This document shows, piece by piece, positions 4,310-41,268 of a DNA stretch of 64,000 bases. The notes beneath the pieces are model-generated. The model did not search any database. It worked only from the letters and a program-made list of their open reading frames with translations, and was not told the origin of the DNA. Position numbers and translations under genes: made by a program. Every line of letters begins with the position of its first letter. Within the stretch, counting starts at the first letter, position 1. Where the stretch lies: positions 1-64,000 of IMG/VR virus record IMGVR_UViG_2884411467_000001, one strand, 5' to 3'. The DNA comes from a virus (lineage: Duplodnaviria > Caudoviricetes).

Positions 4310-5197
4310 TTAGTTACCAACGGCAAACCACGACAGATTCCATGCCTGGCCGACGGTGGCACTGTGCATGAACTGCGTGAAACCCGTCTTTGTCTGCGAT
4401 GACCACGATGAGCCATATGGGACAGCGCCAACGGCGTCCTGTGGAACCGCCACGATGGCCTGAATGCTATTCGGGAAGGCGATTGGGAAGGTGACTGCCG
4501 TTGACCCGTAATAGCCCGGGGAGGTGGCCGTACTGGTCGTTACCGACACGATGCCCCATTGCAGGATTTGGCCGTTAGGAAGCTTGCAGTATCCAGGTCC
4601 CATCCCTGTGCCCGAGGTGTTTGAGCCAGTGAACTGTCCAAGGTTCACAGCCTGGTTCGACTGTGAGCCGGCAGGTACCTGTAAGGCACCTCCAGTTTGC
4701 TCGGCCAGCACCCAGGAAGAGATCGTGGCATTCCAGATCACCTCGACTCGGCCATTCGCGATGATCTCGGCACCCTGCAAGGCCACGTGCGCAGCGCCGA
4801 CAATTGGCTTCGCGCCGAGCCCATTGAGGTTCAGTGTGGAGGCGCCGGTATTGGCAGTCTTCGCTTTGAACCAAAGAGACATGCCGTCGACCAGCGCGGT
4901 CGGCGCCGGTGTAAGAGCCACAGCGTAGGCATTGGCGGTACCGGTATCGGCCGCATAATTCATCTGCCCCGACTGGATCGCCAGGCCGAGCTGGTTGAAC
5001 AGGTTTTTGGTGGGCGTCAGGCCGGCGGCCTCGACGATATTGATCAGCTCCTGCTGGACAGCATTGAGCCATTCCGCGGGAACGATCGTGGCCGGCACAC
5101 CACCCGTGGGACTTCCGTCCGTGAAGAAACCAGGCGTACCCGCACCGGTACTCGCCGGCTGCGTCGCCGCAGCCGTGGAATTATCAATCTGATACAT
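4310..5197 (-). CDS. Short tail fibre protein
   Basis: Mu-type N-terminus (PATIVPAEWLNAVQQEL), ANTGASTLNLNGLG motif, gp53-like C-terminus (KLPNGQILQWG...TFPIAFPN). Confidence 0.8.
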   Translation of the reverse strand: MYQIDNSTAAATQPASTGAGTPGFFTDGSPTGGVPATIVPAEWLNAVQQELINIVEAAGLTPTKNLFNQLGLAIQSGQMNYAADTGTANAYAVALTPAPTALVDGMSLWFKAKTANTGASTLNLNGLGAKPIVGAAHVALQGAEIIANGRVEVIWNATISSWVLAEQTGGALQVPAGSQSNQAVNLGQFTGSNTSGTGMGPGYCKLPNGQILQWGIVSVTTSTATSPGYYGSTAVTFPIAFPNSIQAIVAVPQDAVGAVPYGSSWSSQTKTGFTQFMHSATVGQAWNLSWFAVGN

Positions 5198-5203
5198 AAC
5201 GCC

Positions 5204-5800
5204 TCAGGAGTAGTGGAATTGAAGGACCGTGTGCGCGGGTGCAGCGGCCTGCAGTTCGCACTGCAAAACGGCGTTGCCCCACGAGCCGAGTGCTTCACCG
5301 GCCGTGGCTTGGCCAGCTAGGAATTTCGTGATGGTGTTCAGGGGCGCATTGATCGCCCAGGTGAAGAACCAGTCCGTGCCACCGAGCTGCTGTCCCGCTC
5401 TGCTTTGGCCACACCGGAATGGCGCATACTGGGTGATTGTCACCTGGTAACCAAGCGCCGCGGCAAAGCCGATGAAATACGGTACCGACTGACCACCCGT
5501 GGCGGTCAGCCGCGCGACGATTTGCAGTCGCTGCTGTATGAGTGTCGGAGCCGGACCAGCACACGGATCCGGAAGACCGAGCGTCTCCTGCCATTCCGGA
5601 ATCAGGTCCAGCGCAGTCGAGGGGAATGCGTCTGCCAGCAGGTTAATCGCAGCTTGCGTGTTGCGCGCATACGATGGGGCAAAGCAGGCGATCGTCTGGT
5701 CTTGTACGGACCCTGGTTCCCGACTCCAAGCGCGACCCCGGGGCATAAGCGCCCACATCGCGCCCTGGAAGTCGGATGGTGAGTAAACGGTCGCGGTCAT
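5204..5800 (-). CDS. Baseplate protein, DUF2313/YmfQ (Mu gp48-like)
   Basis: [24 protein letters not shown] and LQCEL..AAPAHT motifs; position after J. Confidence 0.8.
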
Positions 5801-6966
5801 GGGTTGTAGGTAACCGTTCCGCGCACCGGAAGCTGCCCGGTGGCATTGGGAATATTGCCGCTGGGCGAATTGACCACGAAGCCAGGCGTACCAGCGATCG
5901 CCGCGATCGCCGACTCAATCGACGACAGCTCGACTGACGTGCCCGCCTTGGGGCTTCCCTGCTCAAGAAAGACGCTGTCGATTGCCGCATTGATCGCCGT
6001 CTGAACGGAGCTGGAGGGCGTTCCGATGCCACTGAAGACGAAATTGATCGTATTGGGCGTGGGTGCACACACGTACACGAGCGCCGTGGCCGGCTGTTCG
6101 TTGATGAGACCGTTGGCGACATTGAGCTGATCACCGGTCGCCACCGTTCCCCTGGGGACACCGCCAGGGCCAGGGTCATATTGGGACACACCATTCGTGC
6201 CCACGGGGAAGCCGTTGTTTCCGACCTCAGCACTATCCAGCATCGCATAGACCACGACGGTCCCGGTACCGAAGCCGTTCGGCGCGCACCAGGCGCGAGT
6301 GACACCAGGGACCGCGAGAGACCACTGGACGTAGTCCGTCGCGGCGCCACCTTGAGGTGTCTGCTGATACGCCAGCAGCATGCGGGTGCGTAGCGAATCG
6401 TCCAGCTCGACATCCGCGCCGCCGGTGAATGCTGTGGCGGCCGTGCCACTGGATTGAACACCGGCGATAGGCGCTTGAAGGGAGACAATGGTGCTCGCTG
6501 CCGCGTTGCCTGCCGCGCCCTGCCCGGTCGGATTATTCACCGGGTCGATCGGAGGAAGCACTGCAATTGCAGGGATAGTTACCTGGCCACCCGAGCCGAC
6601 TGTTCCCGCGGCGGTCGTCTCGTAGACGTAACCGTCGCCGCGCGCCAGCAGCGTGCCGGACGGAATGGACGTGCCCGGCTGGCCAAGGAACGTAACTGTG
6701 CCGGAGGCCGCCGTCGCTGGTTCCCGGAAGATGTTCCGAAGAGCCGCCCACGCCTCCAGCCATTCATCAGTTGCCGTGTATGGCGTCGCCTGCTTGGCGA
6801 TGTAGTCCAGGTACCCATAATGCTCATGGGACATGCCCGCCTGCACGGTTCCCAAGATATTGAGGTTTGCGAATCGGAGCAGACCGTCGGCGCCCTTGAT
6901 CCCCGAAGAGATGTCGGCCGCAACCTGGCTGCGAAGCACCGAAAGCGTAGGACGCTGATACGGCAT
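5797..6966 (-). CDS. Baseplate J-like wedge protein (Mu gp47-like)
   Basis: MPYQRPTLS start; [14 protein letters not shown] and [15 protein letters not shown] motifs. Confidence 0.85.
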
Positions 6967-7038
6967 CGAGGGGTCCCTGAAAAGCAAAGAGCCGCCAAAA
7001 GGCGGCTCATGTCACTCGAGGTGTGCGTGGTGATCAGA

Positions 7039-7485
7039 TCAGTCGATCTGAGCCCATGCCCAATTGAAGGCAACCGACAGCTGCGTGCCATCGGGCCTCT
7101 GAAGAACAAGTTGGGTGGCGAGCATGTTTGGCTGAACGATGCTCGCCGTCACCGTGATCGAGCTGACAACTCCGTCATCCAGCATCCACTGCAAGGCCTC
7201 AGTGATGAAGCCCTTAGCCTTGGCCGGTATCTGGGCCGTGAGCTTTTCCCGGCCAAGTAGCCACAGGCGCGAGCCGATCGGGTAGTCAGCATCCAGGTCG
7301 CCCCACCATCCCCGGCGATCATCCGATCCATCCGGAATCGGGTCCGAAGCGTTCGCGAGGCGATCCGTAAAGAGGCTGACGTAGATGGCAGTGGTGAGAT
7401 CATCGCCACTTTGGAGATCAGCGCCAGCGACAACCCAATCGCCGCGAGAGAGCGAGGTGTTCCATACGGTAGTGATATCGCTCAT
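7039..7485 (-). CDS. Baseplate wedge protein (Mu gp46-like)
   Basis: SLFTDRLA...RRGWWGD...GSRLWLL..EK motif. Confidence 0.85.
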
Positions 7486-8057
7486 TGCTGCGGACTCGGT
7501 GGGCTCGTGGCGTTAGGCGAATGTCCGTGCTCGTCATAGAGCGCACGATCGGCAGCCATGCTGCGCGTCTTGTCCGTGATGTCGCCGGTCGCGACGATAT
7601 TTCCGTTCACCTGCAGCGTCGGCGTATTGATAACGACCTCTGTCGAGGCGTTCACCGTCACCGTGCTGGCATCGTTTACGGTCACCGGCGTGCCCTTGGC
7701 CTCAACGACAATCCCGCCCTCTGAAAGGTAGATCCGCTTGCCCCACAGGTCGTAAAGCATCGACTCGCCCTCGACCAGGTTGGTCGGTCGGCTGGCCTGG
7801 TGCCCTGTCGCAATGGCTACACCGCTGGACCGGTCACCGCCGACGAACACAACAACGACGTCTGACCCTACTGGCGGCCGAGAGGCATGCCCAAACTCGC
7901 CGAGGCGAGGCGTCGTGTCGCGCGTCTCAAGTGCGCCCATGACCAATTGCAGGAGCTGGGCAGTCTTACTGTCGTTGCTGGTCGTTACGCGGCCACGACC
8001 CACCGTCAGCTGGACCCGGCGCCACAACCGCATGATGGCGTTCTGATCAGCGCTCAT
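7482..8057 (-). CDS. Baseplate spike (Mu gp45/gpV-like)
   Basis: [14 protein letters not shown]-fold motif; C-terminal HGH metal-binding motif. Confidence 0.85.
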
Positions 8058-9121
8058 TGGAATGGGCCATTGAATTCCGCAAAGGTTGGCTGCAGCAAGA
8101 TGGGCTCTGGCTTGAATGCATCAGGCGGCATCAACACAATCGTCGCCGTCGTGCCGTTGTCTTCCGTGCGCGCGTAGGTCACCTGACCAATGGCCAACTC
8201 GGTCGCTCCGAGCTTCAACGCTGGAAGATCCACAGGCGCCAACGTGTTCGGCGCCCATAGTGTCCCCGCAGAGTCGCGCCAGCTATCGCAGACGACTGTC
8301 ACGACCTGCGAATGGCCGGCGCGCCGAGCCATTTCCCATAGTGCTCGCTGTTGCGCGATCTGGTTTCCACCGCCGCCGGCCTCAGCAATGAGGACCAGGC
8401 AGCGGTGCCGCGATACATTAGGGTCGCTTACGTTCGCAAGGAGGTTCCCGCCCTCACCGAGGTCAGTGAAGACGTCGACTGCTTGGAGGAATGCCTGGTA
8501 GTTGCTGTACCGCTGGTCGGCCGAGTATTCGACCGACGCCGAGATGACATTCTGTCCCTGGACAAACCCGCTTGCCGCCTTGACCGTCGCCAGCTGCGCC
8601 AGCAGCAGGCTGCCGTTCGGCTGGTCATAAGCGAGCAGCGCTGAATATCGGCATATCCGCTCGATCACCTCGAAAGCCGACTCGCCGAGCATCAGGTTGA
8701 ACTGAGGGATAACCGGCAACCCGCTCACTGTGCAATCGACGCCGATTCCATACACCGCCGCCAGCTTCTGGGCGATGCCGAGCGCGGTTGACCCGCTGAT
8801 CTGGCCACCCGGCCACTCGGCGGCGCAATCAACCAGGTCGCAGCATTTCGACCGGCCCATGACACGGATGCTGTGCTCCTCCGCGCTGATGCTCGGAATG
8901 AACCGATCAACATAGCCGGTTATGACCACGTCCTGGCCGATGCTGACCACCACCGGCGCACCAGGCTGCGTGATGACGGCATCGAGCTCGCCCGGATAGA
9001 GCTCCGTCATCCCGATACTGAAATCGGACGGAAGGCGCTCTATGCCGCGAGTAACCCGGATGTCCGTCCAGCCGGAAATGGCCTGACCGTTGATGGTCAG
9101 GGTGAGATCGTCTTGTTCCAT
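8054..9121 (-). CDS. Baseplate hub (Mu gp44/P-like)
   Basis: [23 protein letters not shown] and W..NTL motifs. Confidence 0.85.
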
Positions 9122-33201: not shown

Positions 33202-33411
33202 TCAAGCGGCCTGATTGGGCTGCTTGTCGTTGTTGGCGGGCGGCTGGCGACCTACAAGCTGCAAGATGCGAAACCCGGTGTCGTAGCTCACGGAAAGAAC
33301 CCCGTTCCGGATGCGATTGATCGTCGAGCGGTTAACGCCAACGGCCTGGGCGATTTGATGCTCGTTCCAGTGGGCATCGATGAGGGCTTGCACAGCGGCT
33401 TTAGGAGTCAT
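33202..33411 (-). CDS. cro: Cro-like repressor
   Basis: HTH WNEHQIAQAVGVNRSTINRIRNG; divergent from cI. Confidence 0.8.
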   Translation of the reverse strand: MTPKAAVQALIDAHWNEHQIAQAVGVNRSTINRIRNGVLSVSYDTGFRILQLVGRQPPANNDKQPNQAA

Positions 33412-33419
33412 GGGCCATG

Positions 33420-33448
33420 AGCATTGTGCGTTTACGCACAAATGTCAA
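33420..33448 (-). promoter_or_regulatory. pR with OR-like operator
   Basis: Minus-strand TTGACA (33448-33443); palindrome TTGTGCGT-TT-ACGCACAA (33424-33441) in the spacer. Confidence 0.7.
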
Positions 33449-33497
33449 TGCTTTTGCGCAATCAACTGCGCAGACGCAATGTCCGAACATGGAGGGC

Positions 33498-34181
33498 ATG
33501 AGCTACCTCCAGCAGAACCTCAAATGGCTGTTTGAAACGAAGAAGACCAACGGCTACCAAGTGGCCCAGAAGACGGGCGTGGTCGCGAGCACGATCAATC
33601 GCATCGTGAATAGCAAGTTCAACGACGCGCGAGACAGCACGATTCGGCCAATCGCGGAACACTTCGGCCTTTCAGTCAATGACTTGAAGAATGTGGACCT
33701 GCAGGCCCAGGAGAAGCTTCTGGCCGTGGGTGAGGCCGTGGGTAAGCTGTCAGTGGACGCGTGCCTGATCACGGCGGTTCCCGAATTTTTCCCGGAGGAT
33801 GCTCCGCTCATGAACCTGCTGGCACCTCAGGACACGATCGCCCTATCGAAACCTGCGCTCGCGGCTATCACGACCGCCCCGCCATCTGATGTGCGTTTCG
33901 CGATTGCCCTGGACGATGCCATGCGCGGCGAGATTGAAAAAGGTGAGCTGGTTCTCATTGATACCCGTGTTCGGACCGTTACGGTCGACGGCATCTATGC
34001 TTTTACTTACTTCAAGCGACCGCACATTAAGCGAGGCGGTCACGAGGGAGCATCAGGTGGTTTGATGTTCACCGGAACCAATCCAAGGGTGAACAATATC
34101 CCCGTGGAGACCGAGGAAGAGATGAAAGGACTCAACATCATCGGCCAAGTCATTGCCTCCTTCACCAGGCGGCGTTACTGA
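33498..34181 (+). CDS. cI: CI-like repressor (HTH + S24-like domain, catalytic Ser replaced by Ala)
   Basis: GGAGG RBS; HTH NGYQVAQKTGVVASTINRIVN; S24-like DDAM...GELVLID...DGIYAF...IKR...IIGQVI. Confidence 0.85.
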   Translation: MSYLQQNLKWLFETKKTNGYQVAQKTGVVASTINRIVNSKFNDARDSTIRPIAEHFGLSVNDLKNVDLQAQEKLLAVGEAVGKLSVDACLITAVPEFFPEDAPLMNLLAPQDTIALSKPALAAITTAPPSDVRFAIALDDAMRGEIEKGELVLIDTRVRTVTVDGIYAFTYFKRPHIKRGGHEGASGGLMFTGTNPRVNNIPVETEEEMKGLNIIGQVIASFTRRRY

Positions 34182-34216: not shown

Positions 34217-35875
34217 GTGGTATATCTAGCAAAGTGGGCCAGGAACTATTGGGTCCAAGGGACTGCCTTTGCCGTCCTGTATGGATTGACCTTCTACCAT
34301 TTGAAGGATGCCTCGCCAGCTACTCTTAACTTGCCTGTCGGCATGCGACTAGCGCTTTTCCTTGCCCTTCCACCGCGTTGGTGGCCTTGGCTTGTCGCCG
34401 GAGACATCGGAGCAAACGGGTACTGGAACATCACCGTTGCCGTGAAGCATCACTTTCCTGCCCTTTGGGCGGCGGTGGGTACGTCAATGCCGGTGCTCGC
34501 AGGCCTGATCCCTGCACACTTCAACAGGAAGTTTGGCGGCCCATACGATTTTGATAAGCCCCGCGACGCGATGCGCTTCCTTACCACCGCAGCCGGCAGC
34601 TCGCTCCTCACCGCGCTGGTATGCATCCTTGGCATTCTGGCCGCATCCATCGGCCGCCCCACGGGCATGACCTATGCCGACCCGGCCTTGGCGTCCCAGT
34701 TCACGATTTATCTCACTGGAGCATTAGCTTCCACTGTGCTCCTGCCGCCACTGGTGCATGTCGTTCGGGAGTTCTTTCCTAAAGGCAAGCGTGCTCTCAC
34801 GGACAAGGACCTGATCCTTATCGGCGGGTTTGCCGCCTATGTGCTGGTGGGAACGCTCTTCCTACAATCGGTCCCAATCGGCATGCTCACGCTTGTCCGA
34901 TGTGCTCTCTATGCGCCCCTGATCCTCATGACGCGCATCATGGGTTGGCGTGGCGCCACCATCATGGGGCTCGTTTGTGCAATAGCTCTTCAGGCGACGC
35001 AACGCGTTGACGTGGAAGGGCCATTTATCTCGGTGCAGGATATCGCCACTGCCTGCGCGGTCACCATGTTCATCTTCGGGTCCGTTATCTCCGAACAACG
35101 CAAGCAGGTGATAGCTGCCAAGGCGCAAAGCGAGCAGTCGCAGAGCGACGTGCGTCAGATGCGTGGCCTTGTTAAGCGCCACGCAACTCGTTCCGAAGCG
35201 CTCTTTCGGCACAGCGCGGGAATCATGGAAGATCTCGTGCGCGGCGCTCAGCAGGCGGAACGACAGATGCAGGACACGCCCGATCGTGGGGAGCGCGCCC
35301 TCATCCAGTGGGAGGCGATGAAGGGAATTCGCGAACGAATGCGCTCACTGAGTGAGATCTTCCATCCAGAATTGCTCGAGCAGGCAGGGCTCAGAGCAAC
35401 TATCTCGTCCGGGCCGCTGTACCAGATACTCAGCGCCTGCGGGATTGCGTTTGACGACGATCTACGTGCGCGTCCGGGCCTACTCTCGCAAGAAGTCCAA
35501 ATGTCGCTGTACCGCCTTTCTTACGAAGGGGCGTGCGTCATGCTTCGCGATAAGACACCGGAGAGGATGGTGGTGTCACTTCGGATCGGCAGAATTGCTA
35601 GGGGGCCGCGCTACGCGATCCTGCGCTTGAAAGGCGTTGTTTCGAGCCCTGAGGGATGGCGTGCCCCGACCAGTGTTGTGACCACAGGTTTCAGCCTGGA
35701 TGGTATGGGCTTGGTGGCGGAAAGCTTCCAGGGTCGCGTCAAATACAGCAGGGACGCGCACCGCATGACCATCCTCTTGTTCGACGGTGCAACTCAGGCG
35801 ATCACTGAGACCGTAAAGGCCCTACCGTTCTCAATGAACCAAGGCCACCCCTCGGTTACCGACGCCGCGGGCTAA
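34217..35875 (+). CDS. MASE1-domain membrane sensor with degenerate HisKA_3/HATPase-like tail
   Basis: GGGGAGG RBS, GTG start; LPVGMRLALFL.LPPRWWPWLVAGD and about 9 TMs; HPELLEQAGL and LYRLSYEG resemble UhpB-type kinase segments. Confidence 0.7.
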   Translation: MVYLAKWARNYWVQGTAFAVLYGLTFYHLKDASPATLNLPVGMRLALFLALPPRWWPWLVAGDIGANGYWNITVAVKHHFPALWAAVGTSMPVLAGLIPAHFNRKFGGPYDFDKPRDAMRFLTTAAGSSLLTALVCILGILAASIGRPTGMTYADPALASQFTIYLTGALASTVLLPPLVHVVREFFPKGKRALTDKDLILIGGFAAYVLVGTLFLQSVPIGMLTLVRCALYAPLILMTRIMGWRGATIMGLVCAIALQATQRVDVEGPFISVQDIATACAVTMFIFGSVISEQRKQVIAAKAQSEQSQSDVRQMRGLVKRHATRSEALFRHSAGIMEDLVRGAQQAERQMQDTPDRGERALIQWEAMKGIRERMRSLSEIFHPELLEQAGLRATISSGPLYQILSACGIAFDDDLRARPGLLSQEVQMSLYRLSYEGACVMLRDKTPERMVVSLRIGRIARGPRYAILRLKGVVSSPEGWRAPTSVVTTGFSLDGMGLVAESFQGRVKYSRDAHRMTILLFDGATQAITETVKALPFSMNQGHPSVTDAAG

Positions 35876-35888
35876 ACCCGCGGCGTCG
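35860..35888. terminator. 12-bp hairpin at the convergent gene junction
   Basis: CGACGCCGCGGG-CTAAA-CCCGCGGCGTCG; the MASE1 stop codon lies in the loop. Confidence 0.6.
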
Positions 35889-35897
35889 TGGGACGCT

Positions 35898-36356
35898 TTA
35901 ATTGATCTTCGTGCAGTCGGTGACACTGGTGCAGTCCGCCGCCGCGACAGGTCTCGCGCTGGGCGATGCCACAAGCCCTCTTGTTGGCGATGCAGTAACC
36001 GTGGTGCCGCTGTCTGAGTACACGGTCACGCCGTCAGCCGGTGCCGAATCAGTGACCGCCTGCAATTGACCGGCGCCCAGCGGCAGCGCGAGCGAACTCG
36101 TCCCATCAGGCGACGCCGCCACGCCGCCGCGCACAGTTCCGTTCACGTCGTTCACCTGGATGAATTTCAGGCCATTGACGGCGAACACGTAGACATGGAA
36201 CTGCGGATTCGCGCTTACGTCCTGGGCGTTTGGCCACGATTGGCCCAAGCCGCTGGCCGGCGCAGTCTGGGCTACTGCAACGCCCAAACCACCCATCAGC
36301 AAGCACAGCCCCATCGCCAAGGCCACAACGGCCCACTTTAATCTGCTCCGGTCCAT
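35898..36356 (-). CDS. Secreted protein of unknown function (GLGQSWPNAQDVS type)
   Basis: Sec signal peptide ending VAVA-Q; FHVYVF..NG..FIQVND.NG.VRG beta-rich core; C-terminal DCTSVTDCTKIN. Confidence 0.7.
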   Translation of the reverse strand: MDRSRLKWAVVALAMGLCLLMGGLGVAVAQTAPASGLGQSWPNAQDVSANPQFHVYVFAVNGLKFIQVNDVNGTVRGGVAASPDGTSSLALPLGAGQLQAVTDSAPADGVTVYSDSGTTVTASPTRGLVASPSARPVAAADCTSVTDCTKIN

Positions 36357-36474
36357 CCCCTGCTCTCCTTCAGTCTGTTGGCCTTTCGGCGATTCTTGCG
36401 CCGCCAACTCAAGCACTGAACCTGATCAAAAACATGAACGCCCACTGAATGCCGCGCACATTTCAGTGCGGATG

Positions 36475-36528
36475 TGTGCGTTTTCGCACGCACCCCTATT
36501 GCAAATAGTATGTGCGTTTACGCACAAT
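36475..36528 (+). promoter_or_regulatory. OL/pL-like operators and promoter
   Basis: TGTGCGTTTACGCACAA (36511-36527) identical to the OR site; variant TGTGCGTTTTCGCACG (36475-36490); TTGCAA at 36499. Confidence 0.7.
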
Positions 36529-36556: not shown

Positions 36557-36796
36557 ATGAGCGCCGTCTACCCAGCCGAACTATTCGTCCTGCGCCGTCA
36601 GGTCCGAAACGTCTCACTCGCTCCAGCCAGCGTCACCAGGACAGCCGAACGCATCGCCCTTCGCGCCCGCGCCATCGGCATCTCCACCTTCCGTGCCCGC
36701 GAGGGCGCCCTGAACTACCTAGCCTCCCTGTCGTATCTGGGCGGTATGTACGTCCTCGGCGCCAGCGGCACTGACAAGCCGAAGGGTACGGCATGA
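36557..36796 (+). CDS. Hypothetical, first gene of the pL operon
   Basis: GAGGGG RBS; ATGA-coupled to the next gene. Confidence 0.5.
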   Translation: MSAVYPAELFVLRRQVRNVSLAPASVTRTAERIALRARAIGISTFRAREGALNYLASLSYLGGMYVLGASGTDKPKGTA

Positions 36797-38911: not shown

Positions 38912-39475
38912 GTGACTGCACCGACGATTATCTTCCAGAAGGCCTTCATCAAAATCAACAAGGCCCCTGACATCAATGGCATTGCCAGCCTGCTGGAGCC
39001 GCTGACGCTGTCATCTATCACCAGCCAGGTGGATGGCTTTCTCAACCCAGATCCGAATCGCTTCGAGCTCGATGCATCCAGCGGAATCATCTACGACCCG
39101 CTCACTGGGTTGATGTGGGGTGACGAGACGGACGAGCTGACGCCGGACGAAGCTATGGAAGCATGCAAGGCATCGCGCCAGGGTGGCCATTCCGACTGGA
39201 CGAAAGCGGGCCTACGCCCGTGGCTCACCATTGTGGATTACACGCGCAACAACCCCGTGTTGCCACCGCCGTTCAAGACCCATGGCGACTCCGTTTGGAC
39301 GGCTGACGAAACTCCTTGGAGCAAGAAGGAGAAGCGTACGGGTTCTTCCCGCTCCTTCTTCTACGTCGGCATGTGCTACGGCAACGTCAACTACTACCTC
39401 GCCGGCTACCGGCGGCGTGCGCGGCCGGTGCGGCGCGCGGCGCCGGCCAGTCAGTGCTTGGTCATTGGCCAGTAA
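38912..39475 (+). CDS. DGR target protein, DUF1566 (Lcl / CLec-fold) domain
   Basis: IYDPLTGLMW...A...C.....GGHSDW...IVDY...VWT...; VR at the C-terminus; no signal peptide or TM. Confidence 0.85.
   Translation: MTAPTIIFQKAFIKINKAPDINGIASLLEPLTLSSITSQVDGFLNPDPNRFELDASSGIIYDPLTGLMWGDETDELTPDEAMEACKASRQGGHSDWTKAGLRPWLTIVDYTRNNPVLPPPFKTHGDSVWTADETPWSKKEKRTGSSRSFFYVGMCYGNVNYYLAGYRRRARPVRRAAPASQCLVIGQ
39339..39456 (+). repeat. DGR variable repeat (VR) with IMH-like GC-rich 3' end
   Basis: 118-nt match to 39974-40091 (offset 635) with 14 mismatches. Confidence 0.95.
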
Positions 39476-39484
39476 CAGCCTGAC

Positions 39485-39919
39485 ATGACCTTCCACCTTC
39501 CTCCCGCCGTGCGGCTCGCAGAAACCCTTGCTCGCGACATCGAGCAAGCGGTCTCGAAGTTTCACCGCGCGCACCGCTACACGTTCGGCGCTGATCTTCG
39601 CGCCGATATGTGGGCCGTGCTCACGACCGCGAACCGTGCGGCGAGGAAGCCTTCGGAGCGGGCCGCGTTGCTCACCAGGCTGGTTGATCAGGTGGATGAC
39701 CTCAAGCAGCGCCTGCGCCTCGGCCAGTCGCTGCGTCAGTTCAACAGCTTCGGTCAGTTCGAAGCGCTCATGCGCTCGGCGATAAACCTCGGCCAGCAGA
39801 TAGGCGGCTGGCACCGTCAGCACCACCCCAAAGGCCAGGATGGCCGGTCGCACGCGGCCGGACAGCGTGCCATGACACTGAGTACCCGTGACACCTCGAT
39901 GGTTGAGGTCAATCAATGA
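39485..39919 (+). CDS. avd: Accessory variability determinant (Avd-like four-helix bundle)
   Basis: F.RAHRY.FG.DLR...LGQQIGGW motif; lies between VR and TR. Confidence 0.85.
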   Translation: MTFHLPPAVRLAETLARDIEQAVSKFHRAHRYTFGADLRADMWAVLTTANRAARKPSERAALLTRLVDQVDDLKQRLRLGQSLRQFNSFGQFEALMRSAINLGQQIGGWHRQHHPKGQDGRSHAAGQRAMTLSTRDTSMVEVNQ

Positions 39920-41268
39920 CGAAGCTTCGCTACCCACAGGGATGTGCAGCCAGGTCGCAAGTGCACGGGGACGCGGGTTCTTCCCGCTCCTTCTTCTACG
40001 TCAACATGAACAACGGCAACGTCAACAACAACAACGCCAACAACCGGCTGCGTGCGCGGCCGGTGCGGCGCGCGGCGCCGGCCAGTGAGTGTCAGGGTGG
40101 GGTTACTGTTCGCCAATTGCACGATGCGATGTGCGCGGCTCGACGCCGGAAGAAACCCAGTGCGAACCAGCTCGCGTTCGAACTGGCCTGGATGGATCGC
40201 CTCATCGCCATTGAGGCGGACATCAATGCTGGCCGATGGTCTCCAGCACCCGCAACATGCTTCGTCGCAACGCGCCCGAAGGCCCGTGAGATCCATGCGC
40301 CTGATTTCGGCGACCGCGTGGTTCACCACTGGCTCGTGCCTCAGCTGGAAGCCATCTACGAGCCGACGTTCATCCACGACAGCTATGCCAATCGAAAGCG
40401 CAAAGGCTCTCACGCGGCCGTTCTTCGGCTCAGGCAGTTCGTTCGCCAGACCGTCAGCGGTGAAGGCGGCGGCTGGTACCTGCAGCTCGACGTGCATAAC
40501 TTTTTCAACAGCATCCACCGACCCACCCTGTGGCTGATGTTGAAGGACCGCCTCACGCGCGCCAACCTCGATGCTGCAGCTTTGCGCGTGGTTCATGCAC
40601 TCCTTCGTCATCCTGTTGAGCGCCAAGGCGTGCACCACCGAGCCACGGCCGCACAGCGCGCCATGGTTCCGGCTCACAAGCGGTTGGAGAATGCGGCGCC
40701 TGGATGCGGTTTACCAATCGGCAACCTCTCGTCTCAGTTCTTCGCCAATGTCTATCTAGACGCGCTCGATCAGTTCGTGAAGCACACGCTGAAGGCGAGG
40801 CGCTATGCCCGATATGTCGATGACTTCGTGCTAGTCCACCGTGATCGCGCCGTCCTGGAACAGTGGCAGCACGACATCGAGACTTTTCTTGGCCGGGAAC
40901 TGGGCCTGAAGCTGAAGGCTGACATTCGGCTACGCCCTCTGTCAGCCGGCATCGATTTCCTGGGTTATGTCGTCTATCCAACCCACACGCGAGTTCGGGC
41001 TCGTGTGCTCCAGCACATGACGCAGAACCTCGCTGCTTGGGCCCAAGCACACAGCGTGAGGCACGGGTTCGCTGCGACACCCGCCGATATCCGCTCTGCC
41101 GGTTCGATTCTCGCGAGCTTTGACGGCCATCTGCGCCACGCGAATGCGGCGCGTGTGCGGCTCCAAATCTTGAGCCGCTTTCCCTGGGCCAGTCGAATTC
41201 CGACGAAGGCCTCCTTTGCCCCAGCGCTAGAGGGAACGACCGTTCTCCTCCGGCATTCACACTCCTAA
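39916..41268 (+). CDS. DGR reverse transcriptase (ORF includes TR in frame)
   Basis: REIHAPDFGDRVVHH, YLQLDVHNFFNSI, GLPIGNLSSQFFANVYL, RYVDDFV and GIDFLGY motifs. Confidence 0.95.
   Translation: MTKLRYPQGCAARSQVHGDAGSSRSFFYVNMNNGNVNNNNANNRLRARPVRRAAPASECQGGVTVRQLHDAMCAARRRKKPSANQLAFELAWMDRLIAIEADINAGRWSPAPATCFVATRPKAREIHAPDFGDRVVHHWLVPQLEAIYEPTFIHDSYANRKRKGSHAAVLRLRQFVRQTVSGEGGGWYLQLDVHNFFNSIHRPTLWLMLKDRLTRANLDAAALRVVHALLRHPVERQGVHHRATAAQRAMVPAHKRLENAAPGCGLPIGNLSSQFFANVYLDALDQFVKHTLKARRYARYVDDFVLVHRDRAVLEQWQHDIETFLGRELGLKLKADIRLRPLSAGIDFLGYVVYPTHTRVRARVLQHMTQNLAAWAQAHSVRHGFAATPADIRSAGSILASFDGHLRHANAARVRLQILSRFPWASRIPTKASFAPALEGTTVLLRHSHS
39974..40091 (+). repeat. DGR template repeat (TR)
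   Basis: Ten AAC codons; 12 of the 14 differences from VR are at TR adenines. Confidence 0.95.

What the first reader, a model, noticed from the sequence alone, without database searches (positions are those of the whole stretch)
34217..36356. Candidate phage signalling/exclusion system: MASE1 sensor + secreted protein in the lambda rexAB slot
Seen: between cI and the OL operators lie a MASE1 polytopic sensor (35 nt after the cI stop, same strand) and a convergent Sec-exported protein whose upstream region contains CI-type operators. A 12-bp hairpin separates the two genes. Established: in lambda this slot holds rexAB, which is expressed in lysogens; MASE1 is a membrane sensing domain. Inference: the secreted product could be the ligand of the sensor, forming a population-sensing switch analogous in logic to arbitrium in a Gram-negative phage, or an envelope-sensing superinfection defence. 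The non-cleavable CI makes an alternative induction input plausible. I know of no characterised system with this architecture.
Basis: partly seen in the sequence, partly recalled or inferred. Interest (0 to 1): 0.85.

Follow-up and report, generated by a model that had tools for sequence, protein, structure and literature searches.

The report
Phage-borne dead-kinase sensor plus periplasmic partner
Next to its repressor gene, this Dyella-type prophage carries a membrane sensor whose kinase part is catalytically dead and a small exported protein; the two genes travel together in almost every place either is found, so they form an uncharacterised signalling pair, not an arbitrium-like phage communication system.

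Summary

New results:
- **Dead kinase.** The MASE1 protein's C-terminal 250 aa are a DesK/UhpB-type DHp-CA kinase module. It lacks the phospho-His column, the N-box Asn and the G1 box.
- **Conserved cassette.** The two genes form a convergent two-gene cassette. 81 of 82 loci holding the exported-protein gene have a MASE1 partner beside it, and no third gene is conserved.
- **Distribution.** 287 loci were found, mostly in Dyella, Luteibacter and Rhodanobacter, with 2-6 copies in each of five Dyella genomes checked.
- **Phage linkage.** In at least 8 divergent phage lineages the cassette sits directly after a CI-type repressor, with phage-specific operators upstream of the exported gene where I looked.
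- **Repressor decay.** The repressor nucleophile is Ala in 4 of 9 such repressors.

Best reading: a periplasmic partner and a MASE1 pseudokinase sensor, made in lysogens and signalling by protein binding. Its target is unknown. An arbitrium-like diffusible signal is unlikely. No paper or defence-system model found covers the pair. I could not run a complex prediction or examine expression data.

The parts
33202..33441 (-). cro-like small HTH gene, divergent from cI. The likely start is the ATG near 33411.
   Evidence: Pfam HTH_23/HTH_3 and PHROG transcriptional regulator. Promoter-like site TTGACA-17-AATGCT at 33448-33420 overlaps the operator.
33425..33440 (.). OR-type operator, palindrome TGTGCG-N4-CGCACA
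   Evidence: Exact 16-mer shared with 36511-36526; chance expectation 0.38.
33417..34181 (+). CI-like repressor with an HTH and an S24-like C-terminal domain whose nucleophile Ser is replaced by Ala (DDAM). The real start is probably the ATG near 33489-33498.
34217..35104 (+). MASE1 polytopic membrane domain of the sensor, residues 1 to about 296 of the 552-aa product
   Evidence: Pfam PF05231 E 1.7e-12. Hydropathy shows 8-10 TM segments with short, poorly conserved outer loops.
35105..35362 (+). DHp-like helical hairpin (HisKA_3 type) that lacks the phospho-acceptor His column
   Evidence: AF2 model with pLDDT 87 has helices 2-58 and 62-87. hhalign to a canonical MASE1-PAS-HisKA_3-HATPase_c kinase gives 97% probability, E 1e-10, with a gap at the His.
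35369..35875 (+). Degenerate CA (HATPase_c-like) alpha/beta domain plus a disordered tail. The N-box Asn is Val and the G1 DxGxG box is absent.
   Evidence: Top Foldseek hits are DesK DHp-CA (7ssj, 3gig; E about 5e-6).
35860..35888 (.). Perfect 12-bp GC-rich hairpin between the convergent genes; it overlaps the sensor's stop codon. It is a candidate bidirectional terminator without a clear U-tract.
35898..36356 (-). Sec-exported protein of 152 aa. The signal peptide covers about residues 1-30. The mature all-beta protein has the invariant motif GLGxxWPNAxDVS...HVYVF...QVND.NG and a C-terminal CxxxxxC.
   Evidence: No Pfam, PHROG, NCBIfam or PADLOC match. Foldseek 'pdb' gave no match at E <= 0.001 and pdb_via_wide gave a best Z of 5.5.
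36475..36526 (.). OL-type operator pair (36475-36490 and 36511-36526) bracketing the rightward early promoter-like site 36483-36511. The pair lies 119-170 nt upstream of the exported gene.
   Evidence: The same layout, with other operator sequences, occurs in L001, L002 and L093.
36557..36796 (+). First gene of the early-left operon, same direction as cI; no family match

Best explanation
The two genes are a cognate pair. One is an inner-membrane MASE1 sensor whose cytoplasmic DesK/UhpB-type kinase module is catalytically dead. The other is a small Sec-exported, probably periplasmic, all-beta protein that acts as the sensor's partner or co-sensor.

The pair is a self-contained convergent cassette. 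It is widespread and multi-copy in Rhodanobacteraceae chromosomes. In one group of temperate phages it is fixed directly downstream of cI.

Shown:
- the domain identities;
- the loss of the catalytic motifs;
- the near-obligate linkage of the two genes;
- the linkage to cI in the phage lineages;
- the operator layout.

Inferred:
- The sensor is co-transcribed with cI in lysogens, as rexAB is in lambda.
- The partner binds the MASE1 membrane domain.
- The signal passes through the DHp-like hairpin and is delivered by protein binding, not phosphotransfer.
- The most likely target is a host HisKA_3-type kinase or NarL-type regulator, in the manner of RetS acting on GacS. Each Dyella genome examined has one canonical MASE1-HisKA_3-HATPase_c kinase.
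- The prophage would thereby reprogramme envelope-related host signalling, a form of lysogenic conversion.
For: - **Kinase fold and lost motifs.** MASE1 is above the Pfam threshold. The UhpB NCBIfam model aligns to residues 21-463 of the 562-aa ORF used in that search. hhalign to a canonical kinase gives 97% probability. AF2 plus Foldseek place the C-terminus on DesK DHp-CA. The His column is a gap, and the N-box Asn and G1 box are absent across the whole family.
- **Linkage of the two genes.** A scan of genome contigs found 287 loci. 81 of 82 loci have a MASE1-family gene convergent to and abutting the exported gene. Clustering all neighbours leaves only these two genes conserved. Every exported-gene copy in 5 Dyella genomes lies beside a pseudokinase copy.
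- **Contact is with the membrane domain.** Mantel r is 0.78 against a permutation maximum of 0.18. The partial correlation is 0.42 with the membrane domain and 0.09 with the cytoplasmic domain. About 9 of the 82 loci pair the exported protein with a stand-alone MASE1 domain of about 300 aa.
- **Linkage to cI.** The window, L001, L002/L004/L086, L003 and L093-L096 all show repressor, then MASE1, then the convergent exported gene.
- **Possible host target.** A canonical MASE1-HisKA_3-HATPase_c kinase lies near a NarL-type regulator in Dyella acidisoli. Five Dyella genomes each give one weaker match of this kind.
- **Precedent.** RetS acts on GacS through DHp contacts (PMC8498467).
Against: - No physical interaction was tested.
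- No expression data were available.
- The exported protein has no recognisable fold relative, so 'co-sensor' rests on genomic linkage alone.
- The proposed host target is pure analogy.
- The chromosomal copies lie among unrelated housekeeping genes, which gives no clue to the output.
- The recurrent decay of the CI catalytic dyad next to the cassette points instead to a link with the repressor.
Confidence: 0.4

Rival explanations
1. The cassette is an input to the immunity switch. The MASE1 pseudokinase binds, sequesters or stabilises CI in response to the state of its periplasmic partner. This would give a RecA-independent route to induction or to the lysogeny decision, much as membrane transporters sequester repressors such as Mlc.
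For: - The cassette directly follows a CI-type repressor, on the same strand, in all 9 phage-type lineages. These span the deepest splits of the family and have different operator specificities.
- The CI nucleophile is Ala in 4 of 9 repressors, scattered over both clades. The general-base position reads Arg in L094-L096. This suggests relaxed selection on self-cleavage.
- A kinase module without catalysis leaves protein binding as its only output.
Against: - Most cassettes (63 of 72 family members in the tree) are chromosomal with no repressor nearby, so the module works without CI.
- Five of the 9 repressors keep Ser, and L001-L004 keep Ser and Lys.
- rexAB-type morons are also inherited together with cI, so adjacency does not discriminate.
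- The apparent CI-MASE1 fusion protein P0208 comes from a fungal assembly record and probably reflects a eukaryotic gene model laid over contaminant bacterial DNA.
Confidence: 0.2
2. The cassette is a Rex-like superinfection exclusion or abortive-infection system. The lysogen-expressed membrane sensor would detect envelope perturbation by an incoming phage and trigger exclusion.
For: - It holds the same position and orientation as rexAB.
- From my own knowledge, the 933W stk kinase also sits between cI and OL.
- The sensor is a membrane protein that is probably co-transcribed with cI.
Against: - No PADLOC model matches.
- There is no homology to RexA/B or any PHROG family.
- The chromosomal paralogues sit at syntenic housekeeping positions beside RecC, an alcohol dehydrogenase, efflux and TonB-receptor genes. 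They are not in variable defence islands.
- No effector domain such as a nuclease, pore or NADase is present.
Confidence: 0.15
3. The pair is an exported toxin or bacteriocin-like protein with a polytopic membrane immunity protein.
For: - The pairs are multi-copy.
- The exported protein has a conserved N-terminal part (72% median identity) and a variable C-terminal part (38%) with a disulfide-type CxxxxxC.
- About 9 loci pair it with a stand-alone MASE1 membrane protein.
- Prophages often carry such pairs.
Against: - The variable part is only about 40-50 residues, low-complexity and Ser/Thr/Ala-rich, with no recognisable toxin domain.
- The partner keeps a 250-aa kinase-fold domain in 71 of 82 loci, which is not expected of an immunity protein.
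- Sec export alone does not release a protein from a Gram-negative cell.
Confidence: 0.08
4. This is an arbitrium-like population-sensing system, in which the exported protein is a diffusible signal read by the MASE1 receptor of neighbouring lysogens.
For: - The ligand-like and receptor-like genes are tightly linked and co-diverge.
- They lie in the immunity region, with operators upstream of the exported gene.
Against: - The product is a folded protein of about 12 kDa, not a processed peptide.
- It has a plain Sec signal, so it should stay in the periplasm, and no secretion or uptake genes are linked.
- The family is mainly chromosomal, with 2-6 copies in each of five genomes checked.
- The exported protein is more conserved than its receptor (51% against 32-33% median identity), the reverse of what specificity-coding signals show.
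Confidence: 0.04

Closest known systems
UhpB (E. coli MASE1-HisKA_3-HATPase_c sensor kinase, which works with the membrane co-sensor UhpC and the NarL-type regulator UhpA)
   Same: - Same architecture and size.
- The UhpB NCBIfam model aligns over residues 21-463 of the 562-aa ORF used in that search (E 1e-9).
- From my own knowledge, UhpB's MASE1 domain depends on a separate partner protein for sensing.
   Different: - The score is far below the equivalog cutoff (37.8 against 408 bits).
- The phospho-His, N-box Asn and G1 box are missing.
- No regulator is linked.
- The partner is a soluble exported beta protein, not an MFS transporter homologue.
DesK (HisKA_3-family kinase, DHp-CA structures 7ssj, 3gig, 5iuj)
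   Same: It is the best structural match for the C-terminal 250 aa: Foldseek E about 5e-6, probability 1.0.
   Different: - Sequence identity is 13-16%.
- The catalytic residues are absent.
- TM-scores are only 0.35-0.48, because the relative position of the domains differs.
Non-phosphorylating kinase-fold regulators such as RetS acting on GacS (PMC8498467) and the ChrS pseudokinase variant (PMC9491836)
   Same: A kinase fold used for signalling through DHp-mediated protein contacts rather than phosphotransfer.
   Different: - No sequence relationship was shown.
- The target here is unknown.
- RetS keeps other domains and is not paired with an exported protein.
Lambda rexAB (and, from my own knowledge, 933W stk) in the slot between cI and OL
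   Same: - Position between cI and OL.
- The first gene is on the same strand as cI, with a short gap.
- Expression in lysogens is presumed.
   Different: - No homology.
- The second gene is convergent rather than co-directional.
- The family is mostly chromosomal.
Arbitrium (AimP/AimR/AimX) and Rap-Phr cassettes
   Same: A linked exported product and receptor, carried by temperate phages and multi-copy in genomes.
   Different: - The receptor is a membrane pseudokinase, not a cytoplasmic TPR protein.
- The product is a folded protein, not a short peptide.
- The host is Gram-negative.

Membership tests
MASE1 (PF05231) | Match to the family HMM above the gathering score, over most of the model | tested here: met
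   47.5 bits against 29.8, covering model positions 11-299 of 299. The relatives L093-L096 also match.
HisKA_3/HATPase_c sensor histidine kinase (UhpB/DesK/NarX type) | DHp helical hairpin plus CA alpha/beta fold | tested here: met
   AF2 model with pLDDT 87. DesK chains top the Foldseek list. hhalign to a canonical kinase gives 97% probability, E 1e-10.
HisKA_3/HATPase_c sensor histidine kinase (UhpB/DesK/NarX type) | Phospho-acceptor His in the H-box (ELHDxxGQ) | tested here: not met
   The His column is a one-residue gap in every family member, both phage and chromosomal. The nearby His of FRHSAG occurs in only 6 of 68 members and aligns 6 residues upstream.
HisKA_3/HATPase_c sensor histidine kinase (UhpB/DesK/NarX type) | ATP-binding N-box Asn and G1 DxGxG | tested here: not met
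   The N-box position is Val in the window and Y/D/H/E elsewhere. The G1 box is absent. Pfam HisKA_3 and HATPase_c do not match even at E 10.
HisKA_3/HATPase_c sensor histidine kinase (UhpB/DesK/NarX type) | Cognate response regulator encoded alongside | tested here: not met
   No regulator cluster is conserved across the 82 loci, and none lies in the window's immunity region.
Lambda RexA/RexB exclusion system | Homology to RexA/RexB or to a defence-system model | tested here: not met
   No PHROG or PADLOC hit for either protein.
Lambda RexA/RexB exclusion system | Location between cI and OL, on the same strand as cI | tested here: met
   This holds for the MASE1 gene. The second gene is convergent.
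Lambda RexA/RexB exclusion system | Excludes superinfecting phages | not testable with these tools
   Needs plating assays.
Arbitrium (AimR-AimP-AimX) | Short pro-peptide processed to a hexapeptide and read by a cytoplasmic TPR receptor | tested here: not met
   The product is 152 aa with a folded eight-strand beta core. The receptor-like gene is a MASE1 membrane protein.
Self-cleaving S24 repressor (LexA / lambda CI type) | Ser nucleophile and Lys general base | tested here: not met
   The window CI has Ala at the Ser column (DDAM against DDSM in L001-L004). Lys appears to be retained. The Pfam S24 score of 21.5 is just under the cutoff of 23.3.

The most novel reading that the evidence does not exclude
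The cassette is a transmembrane input to the phage immunity switch. A periplasmic protein reports envelope or periplasmic state to a MASE1 pseudokinase. The pseudokinase binds the often non-cleavable CI encoded just upstream and sets induction or lysogeny independently of RecA. The large chromosomal family in Rhodanobacteraceae would then descend from a domesticated phage copy.
Probability: 0.15. Interest if true: 0.85.

Novelty: new variant of a known kind. Interest (0 to 1): 0.6.

Why it matters
- **MASE1.** It is a very common membrane 'sensor' domain with almost no known signals. One review lists it among domains with no discernible physiological purpose (PMC8846402). A family in which MASE1 is near-obligately paired with a specific exported protein offers a tractable handle on what MASE1 senses.
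- **Bacterial pseudokinases.** The kinase module has lost every catalytic motif yet is conserved across hundreds of loci. That makes it a clean case of a bacterial pseudokinase that must signal by binding.
- **Phage biology.** The cassette is fixed next to cI across deeply diverged, heteroimmune phages, several of which have repressors with a decayed self-cleavage site. It may be either a new lysogenic-conversion or exclusion module, or a new kind of induction input.

Tried and rejected
- **Complex prediction.** I tried to fold the sensor's MASE1 domain with the mature exported protein.
- **Fold of the exported protein.** Foldseek 'pdb' gave nothing at E <= 0.001. pdb_via_wide gave a best Z of 5.5, below the tool's noise level of 7-8. 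The ESM Atlas returned only unannotated clusters of the same family.
- **Family libraries.** Pfam, PHROGs, NCBIfam and PADLOC gave nothing for the exported protein. Pfam also gave nothing for the C-terminal domain alone.
- **PDB sequence search.** The C-terminal domain matched only a coiled-coil at noise level.
- **Cultured phages.** INPHARED holds no homologue of the sensor.
- **The fused CI-MASE1 protein P0208.** It looked like a Rosetta-stone fusion. It is a singleton from a Mycena (fungus) record with no contig on file. I count it as evidence of adjacency only.
- **A conserved third gene, such as a response regulator.** None was found.
- **Promoter of the exported gene.** The best sigma-70-like site matches only 7 of 12 positions, so whether CI regulates the gene is open.
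- **Shared operators in other loci.** My chosen intervals in L003 and L094-L096 showed none. This may reflect the intervals I chose.
- **Literature.** Searches for MASE1 with prophage, UhpC or pseudokinase found nothing relevant.
Full report
**Observation.** The described anatomy is present.
- ORF 33417-34181 (+) is a CI-type repressor with an HTH and an S24-like domain. It matches PHROG 'transcriptional repressor' at E 5e-17. It diverges from a small cro-like HTH gene at 33202-33441 (-).
- The palindrome TGTGCGTTTACGCACA lies between those two genes at 33425-33440 and recurs exactly at 36511-36526. A copy with 2 mismatches lies at 36475-36490. Chance expectation is 0.38 matches, and no shuffle out of 100 reached the observed count.
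- The next gene starts at GTG 34217, 35 nt after the cI stop, behind GGAGG. Its first ~300 residues match Pfam MASE1 above threshold.
- A 152-aa ORF runs the other way (35898-36356). It has an AAGGAG site and a classical Sec signal ending AVA/QT.
- The two stop codons are 22 nt apart. A perfect 12-bp hairpin spans them: -29.9 kcal/mol, z -4.2.
- The window belongs to an 81-kb IMG/VR provirus record. Its layout is lambda-like. An HTH_36-domain protein, which I take to be a replication-initiator type, lies beyond cro. An early-left operon lies beyond OL, in the same direction as cI.

**The sensor is a pseudokinase.** Pfam sees nothing in the C-terminal 250 residues. Four other results identify them.
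- The NCBIfam UhpB model aligns across residues 21-463 of the 562-aa ORF used in that search (E 1e-9, far below the equivalog cutoff).
- An exhaustive profile search with that region found 97 cluster representatives. Nearly all are 510-560 aa with the same architecture. One is a canonical MASE1-PAS-HisKA_3-HATPase_c kinase.
- A 64-sequence family profile aligns to that kinase with 97% probability over 201 columns.
- An AF2 model (pLDDT 87) shows a long helical hairpin followed by an alpha/beta domain. Its best PDB matches are DesK DHp-CA structures.

In those alignments the phospho-acceptor His of ELHDxxGQ falls in a one-residue gap in every family member. The N-box Asn is Val here and Y/D/H/E elsewhere. 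The G1 DxGxG box is missing. The conserved-looking His in FRHSAG is confined to the window's own clade (6 of 68 members) and sits 6 residues upstream of the true position. The fold is kept and the chemistry is gone. No response regulator is linked.

**The two genes are a cassette.**
- The sensor has only two close relatives among near-length proteins. The exported protein has over 120, mostly from Dyella, Luteibacter, Frateuria and Rhodanobacter.
- A scan of species-representative genomes found 287 loci encoding the exported family.
- Of the 80 best of those plus 2 metagenomic loci, 81 of 82 have a MASE1-family gene convergent to and abutting the exported gene.
- Clustering all neighbouring ORFs left exactly two conserved families. 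The next most common neighbour occurs in 13 loci.
- The other neighbours are unrelated housekeeping genes: RecC, an alcohol dehydrogenase, an OmpR-type two-component system, efflux and TonB-receptor genes.
- Five Dyella genomes hold 2-6 exported-gene copies each. Every one lies beside a pseudokinase copy, and a few pseudokinases are orphans.
- The distance matrices of the two proteins correlate, with Mantel r 0.78 against a permutation maximum of 0.18. Linked genes are expected to do this, but it shows they have duplicated and diverged as a unit.

Two further hints place the contact on the membrane domain.
- The exported protein's distances track the MASE1 domain after controlling for the cytoplasmic domain (partial r 0.42), and not the reverse (0.09). 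I ran no significance test on this.
- About nine loci, mostly Luteibacter, pair the exported protein with a stand-alone MASE1 domain of about 300 aa.

The exported protein has an invariant N-terminal motif, an eight-strand beta core (pLDDT above 90), a variable Ser/Thr-rich segment and a C-terminal CxxxxxC. It has no confident structural relative.

**Phage linkage.** Repressor, then MASE1, then the convergent exported gene is found in:
- the window;
- two Logan contigs, L001 and L002;
- Dyella japonica (L004, the same phage as L002 and IMG/VR locus L086);
- Dyella sp. AtDHG13 (L003);
- four metagenomic viral contigs, L093-L096, whose sensors are only about 25% identical to the window's.

L001, L002 and L093 use different palindromic operators from the window. 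Each repeats its own operator both at the cro/cI junction and upstream of the exported gene. The layout is therefore conserved across heteroimmune phages.

The window's clade is monophyletic with 100% support. In a quick tree rooted on canonical kinases, the two phage clades branch first and the 63 chromosomal copies form one clade with support 0.96. This suggests the chromosomal family could derive from a phage copy. Long-branch attraction to the outgroup is not excluded.

The repressor's nucleophile is Ala in the window, P0208, L093 and L095. It is Ser in L001-L004, L094 and L096. The general-base position reads Arg in L094-L096. Decay of self-cleavage chemistry is therefore frequent beside this cassette but not universal.

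**Mechanism.**
- Shown: a membrane MASE1 domain fused to a dead DHp-CA module, near-obligate pairing with an exported protein, no third component, and cI linkage in phages.
- Inferred: the exported protein stays in the periplasm (Sec signal only, Gram-negative host) and binds the MASE1 domain. From my own knowledge, UhpB needs UhpC in a comparable way.
- Inferred: the DHp-like hairpin transmits the signal, and the output is binding rather than phosphorylation.
- The target is open. I favour a host HisKA_3 kinase or NarL-type regulator at 0.4. Each Dyella genome examined has one canonical MASE1-HisKA_3-HATPase_c match, and the one I annotated lies near a NarL-type regulator. Most cassettes work in chromosomes without any CI.
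- A direct link to CI (0.2) is favoured by the invariant adjacency and the decaying dyads.
- Rex-like exclusion (0.15) rests on position only. No defence model matches, and the chromosomal copies are not in defence islands.
- A toxin-immunity pair (0.08) and arbitrium-like signalling (0.04) fit poorly.

**Comparison and novelty.** The closest known proteins are UhpB and DesK (fold and architecture), RetS-type non-phosphorylating kinases (logic) and rexAB (position). The pair fails the defining tests for a functional histidine kinase, for Rex and for arbitrium. I found no paper or curated model covering the pair. I class it as a new variant of a known kind: a sensor-kinase-like protein with a periplasmic accessory. 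Its unusual features are that it is phage-anchored and catalytically dead.

**Earlier notes of this scan.** The two notes returned are first-reader notes on this same stretch and add no independent evidence.

Noticed in passing
window 38912-41268: A diversity-generating retroelement. The target gene at 38912-39475 has an Lcl_C domain. Its variable repeat (39339-39456) and the template repeat (39974-40091) are 88% identical, and nearly all mismatches fall at template adenines. The reverse transcriptase gene lies at 39916-41268. It sits in or beside the early-left region rather than next to tail genes.
   Followed up: partly
L028, L030, L041, L046, L048, L070, L072, L077, L078 (mostly Luteibacter), about 6450-7470 (-): In these loci the exported gene is paired with a stand-alone MASE1 domain of about 300 aa that has no pseudokinase module.
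   Followed up: partly
L084 (Dyella acidisoli) 4524-6113 (-), 7515-8270 (+): A canonical MASE1-HisKA_3-HATPase_c kinase of the same size as the pseudokinases. A NarL-type regulator lies nearby, separated from it by an IS110-family transposase, and a BamE-domain protein lies downstream. The five Dyella genomes searched each give one comparable weaker match.
   Followed up: partly
P0208 (UniRef, labelled Mycena chlorophos): A 759-aa 'fungal' protein that joins a Ser-less CI-like repressor to a MASE1 pseudokinase. It is most likely bacterial or prophage contamination in a fungal assembly, merged into one product by a eukaryotic gene model.
   Followed up: partly
G001 (Dyella acidisoli) C1:1556250-1557788; G002 C1:4135178-4135906: Two pseudokinase copies carry an in-frame TAG. 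One locus has a second, truncated exported-gene copy in tandem. Some cassettes appear to be decaying or duplicating.
   Followed up: no
L016 (Dyella marensis) 6001-6363: The only locus of 82 where no MASE1-family gene was detected beside the exported gene. I did not examine why.
   Followed up: no
window 36454-36471: An everted version of the operator half-sites (CGCACA-TTTCA-GTGCG) lies just left of the OL operators, between them and the exported gene. It may be an extra regulatory site.
   Followed up: no
L035, L058, L082 (labelled Candidatus Eremiobacteraeota) and L081 (labelled Saccharimonadales): Cassettes very close to Dyella ones appear in bins assigned to unrelated phyla. This is probably binning contamination rather than gene transfer.
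   Followed up: no
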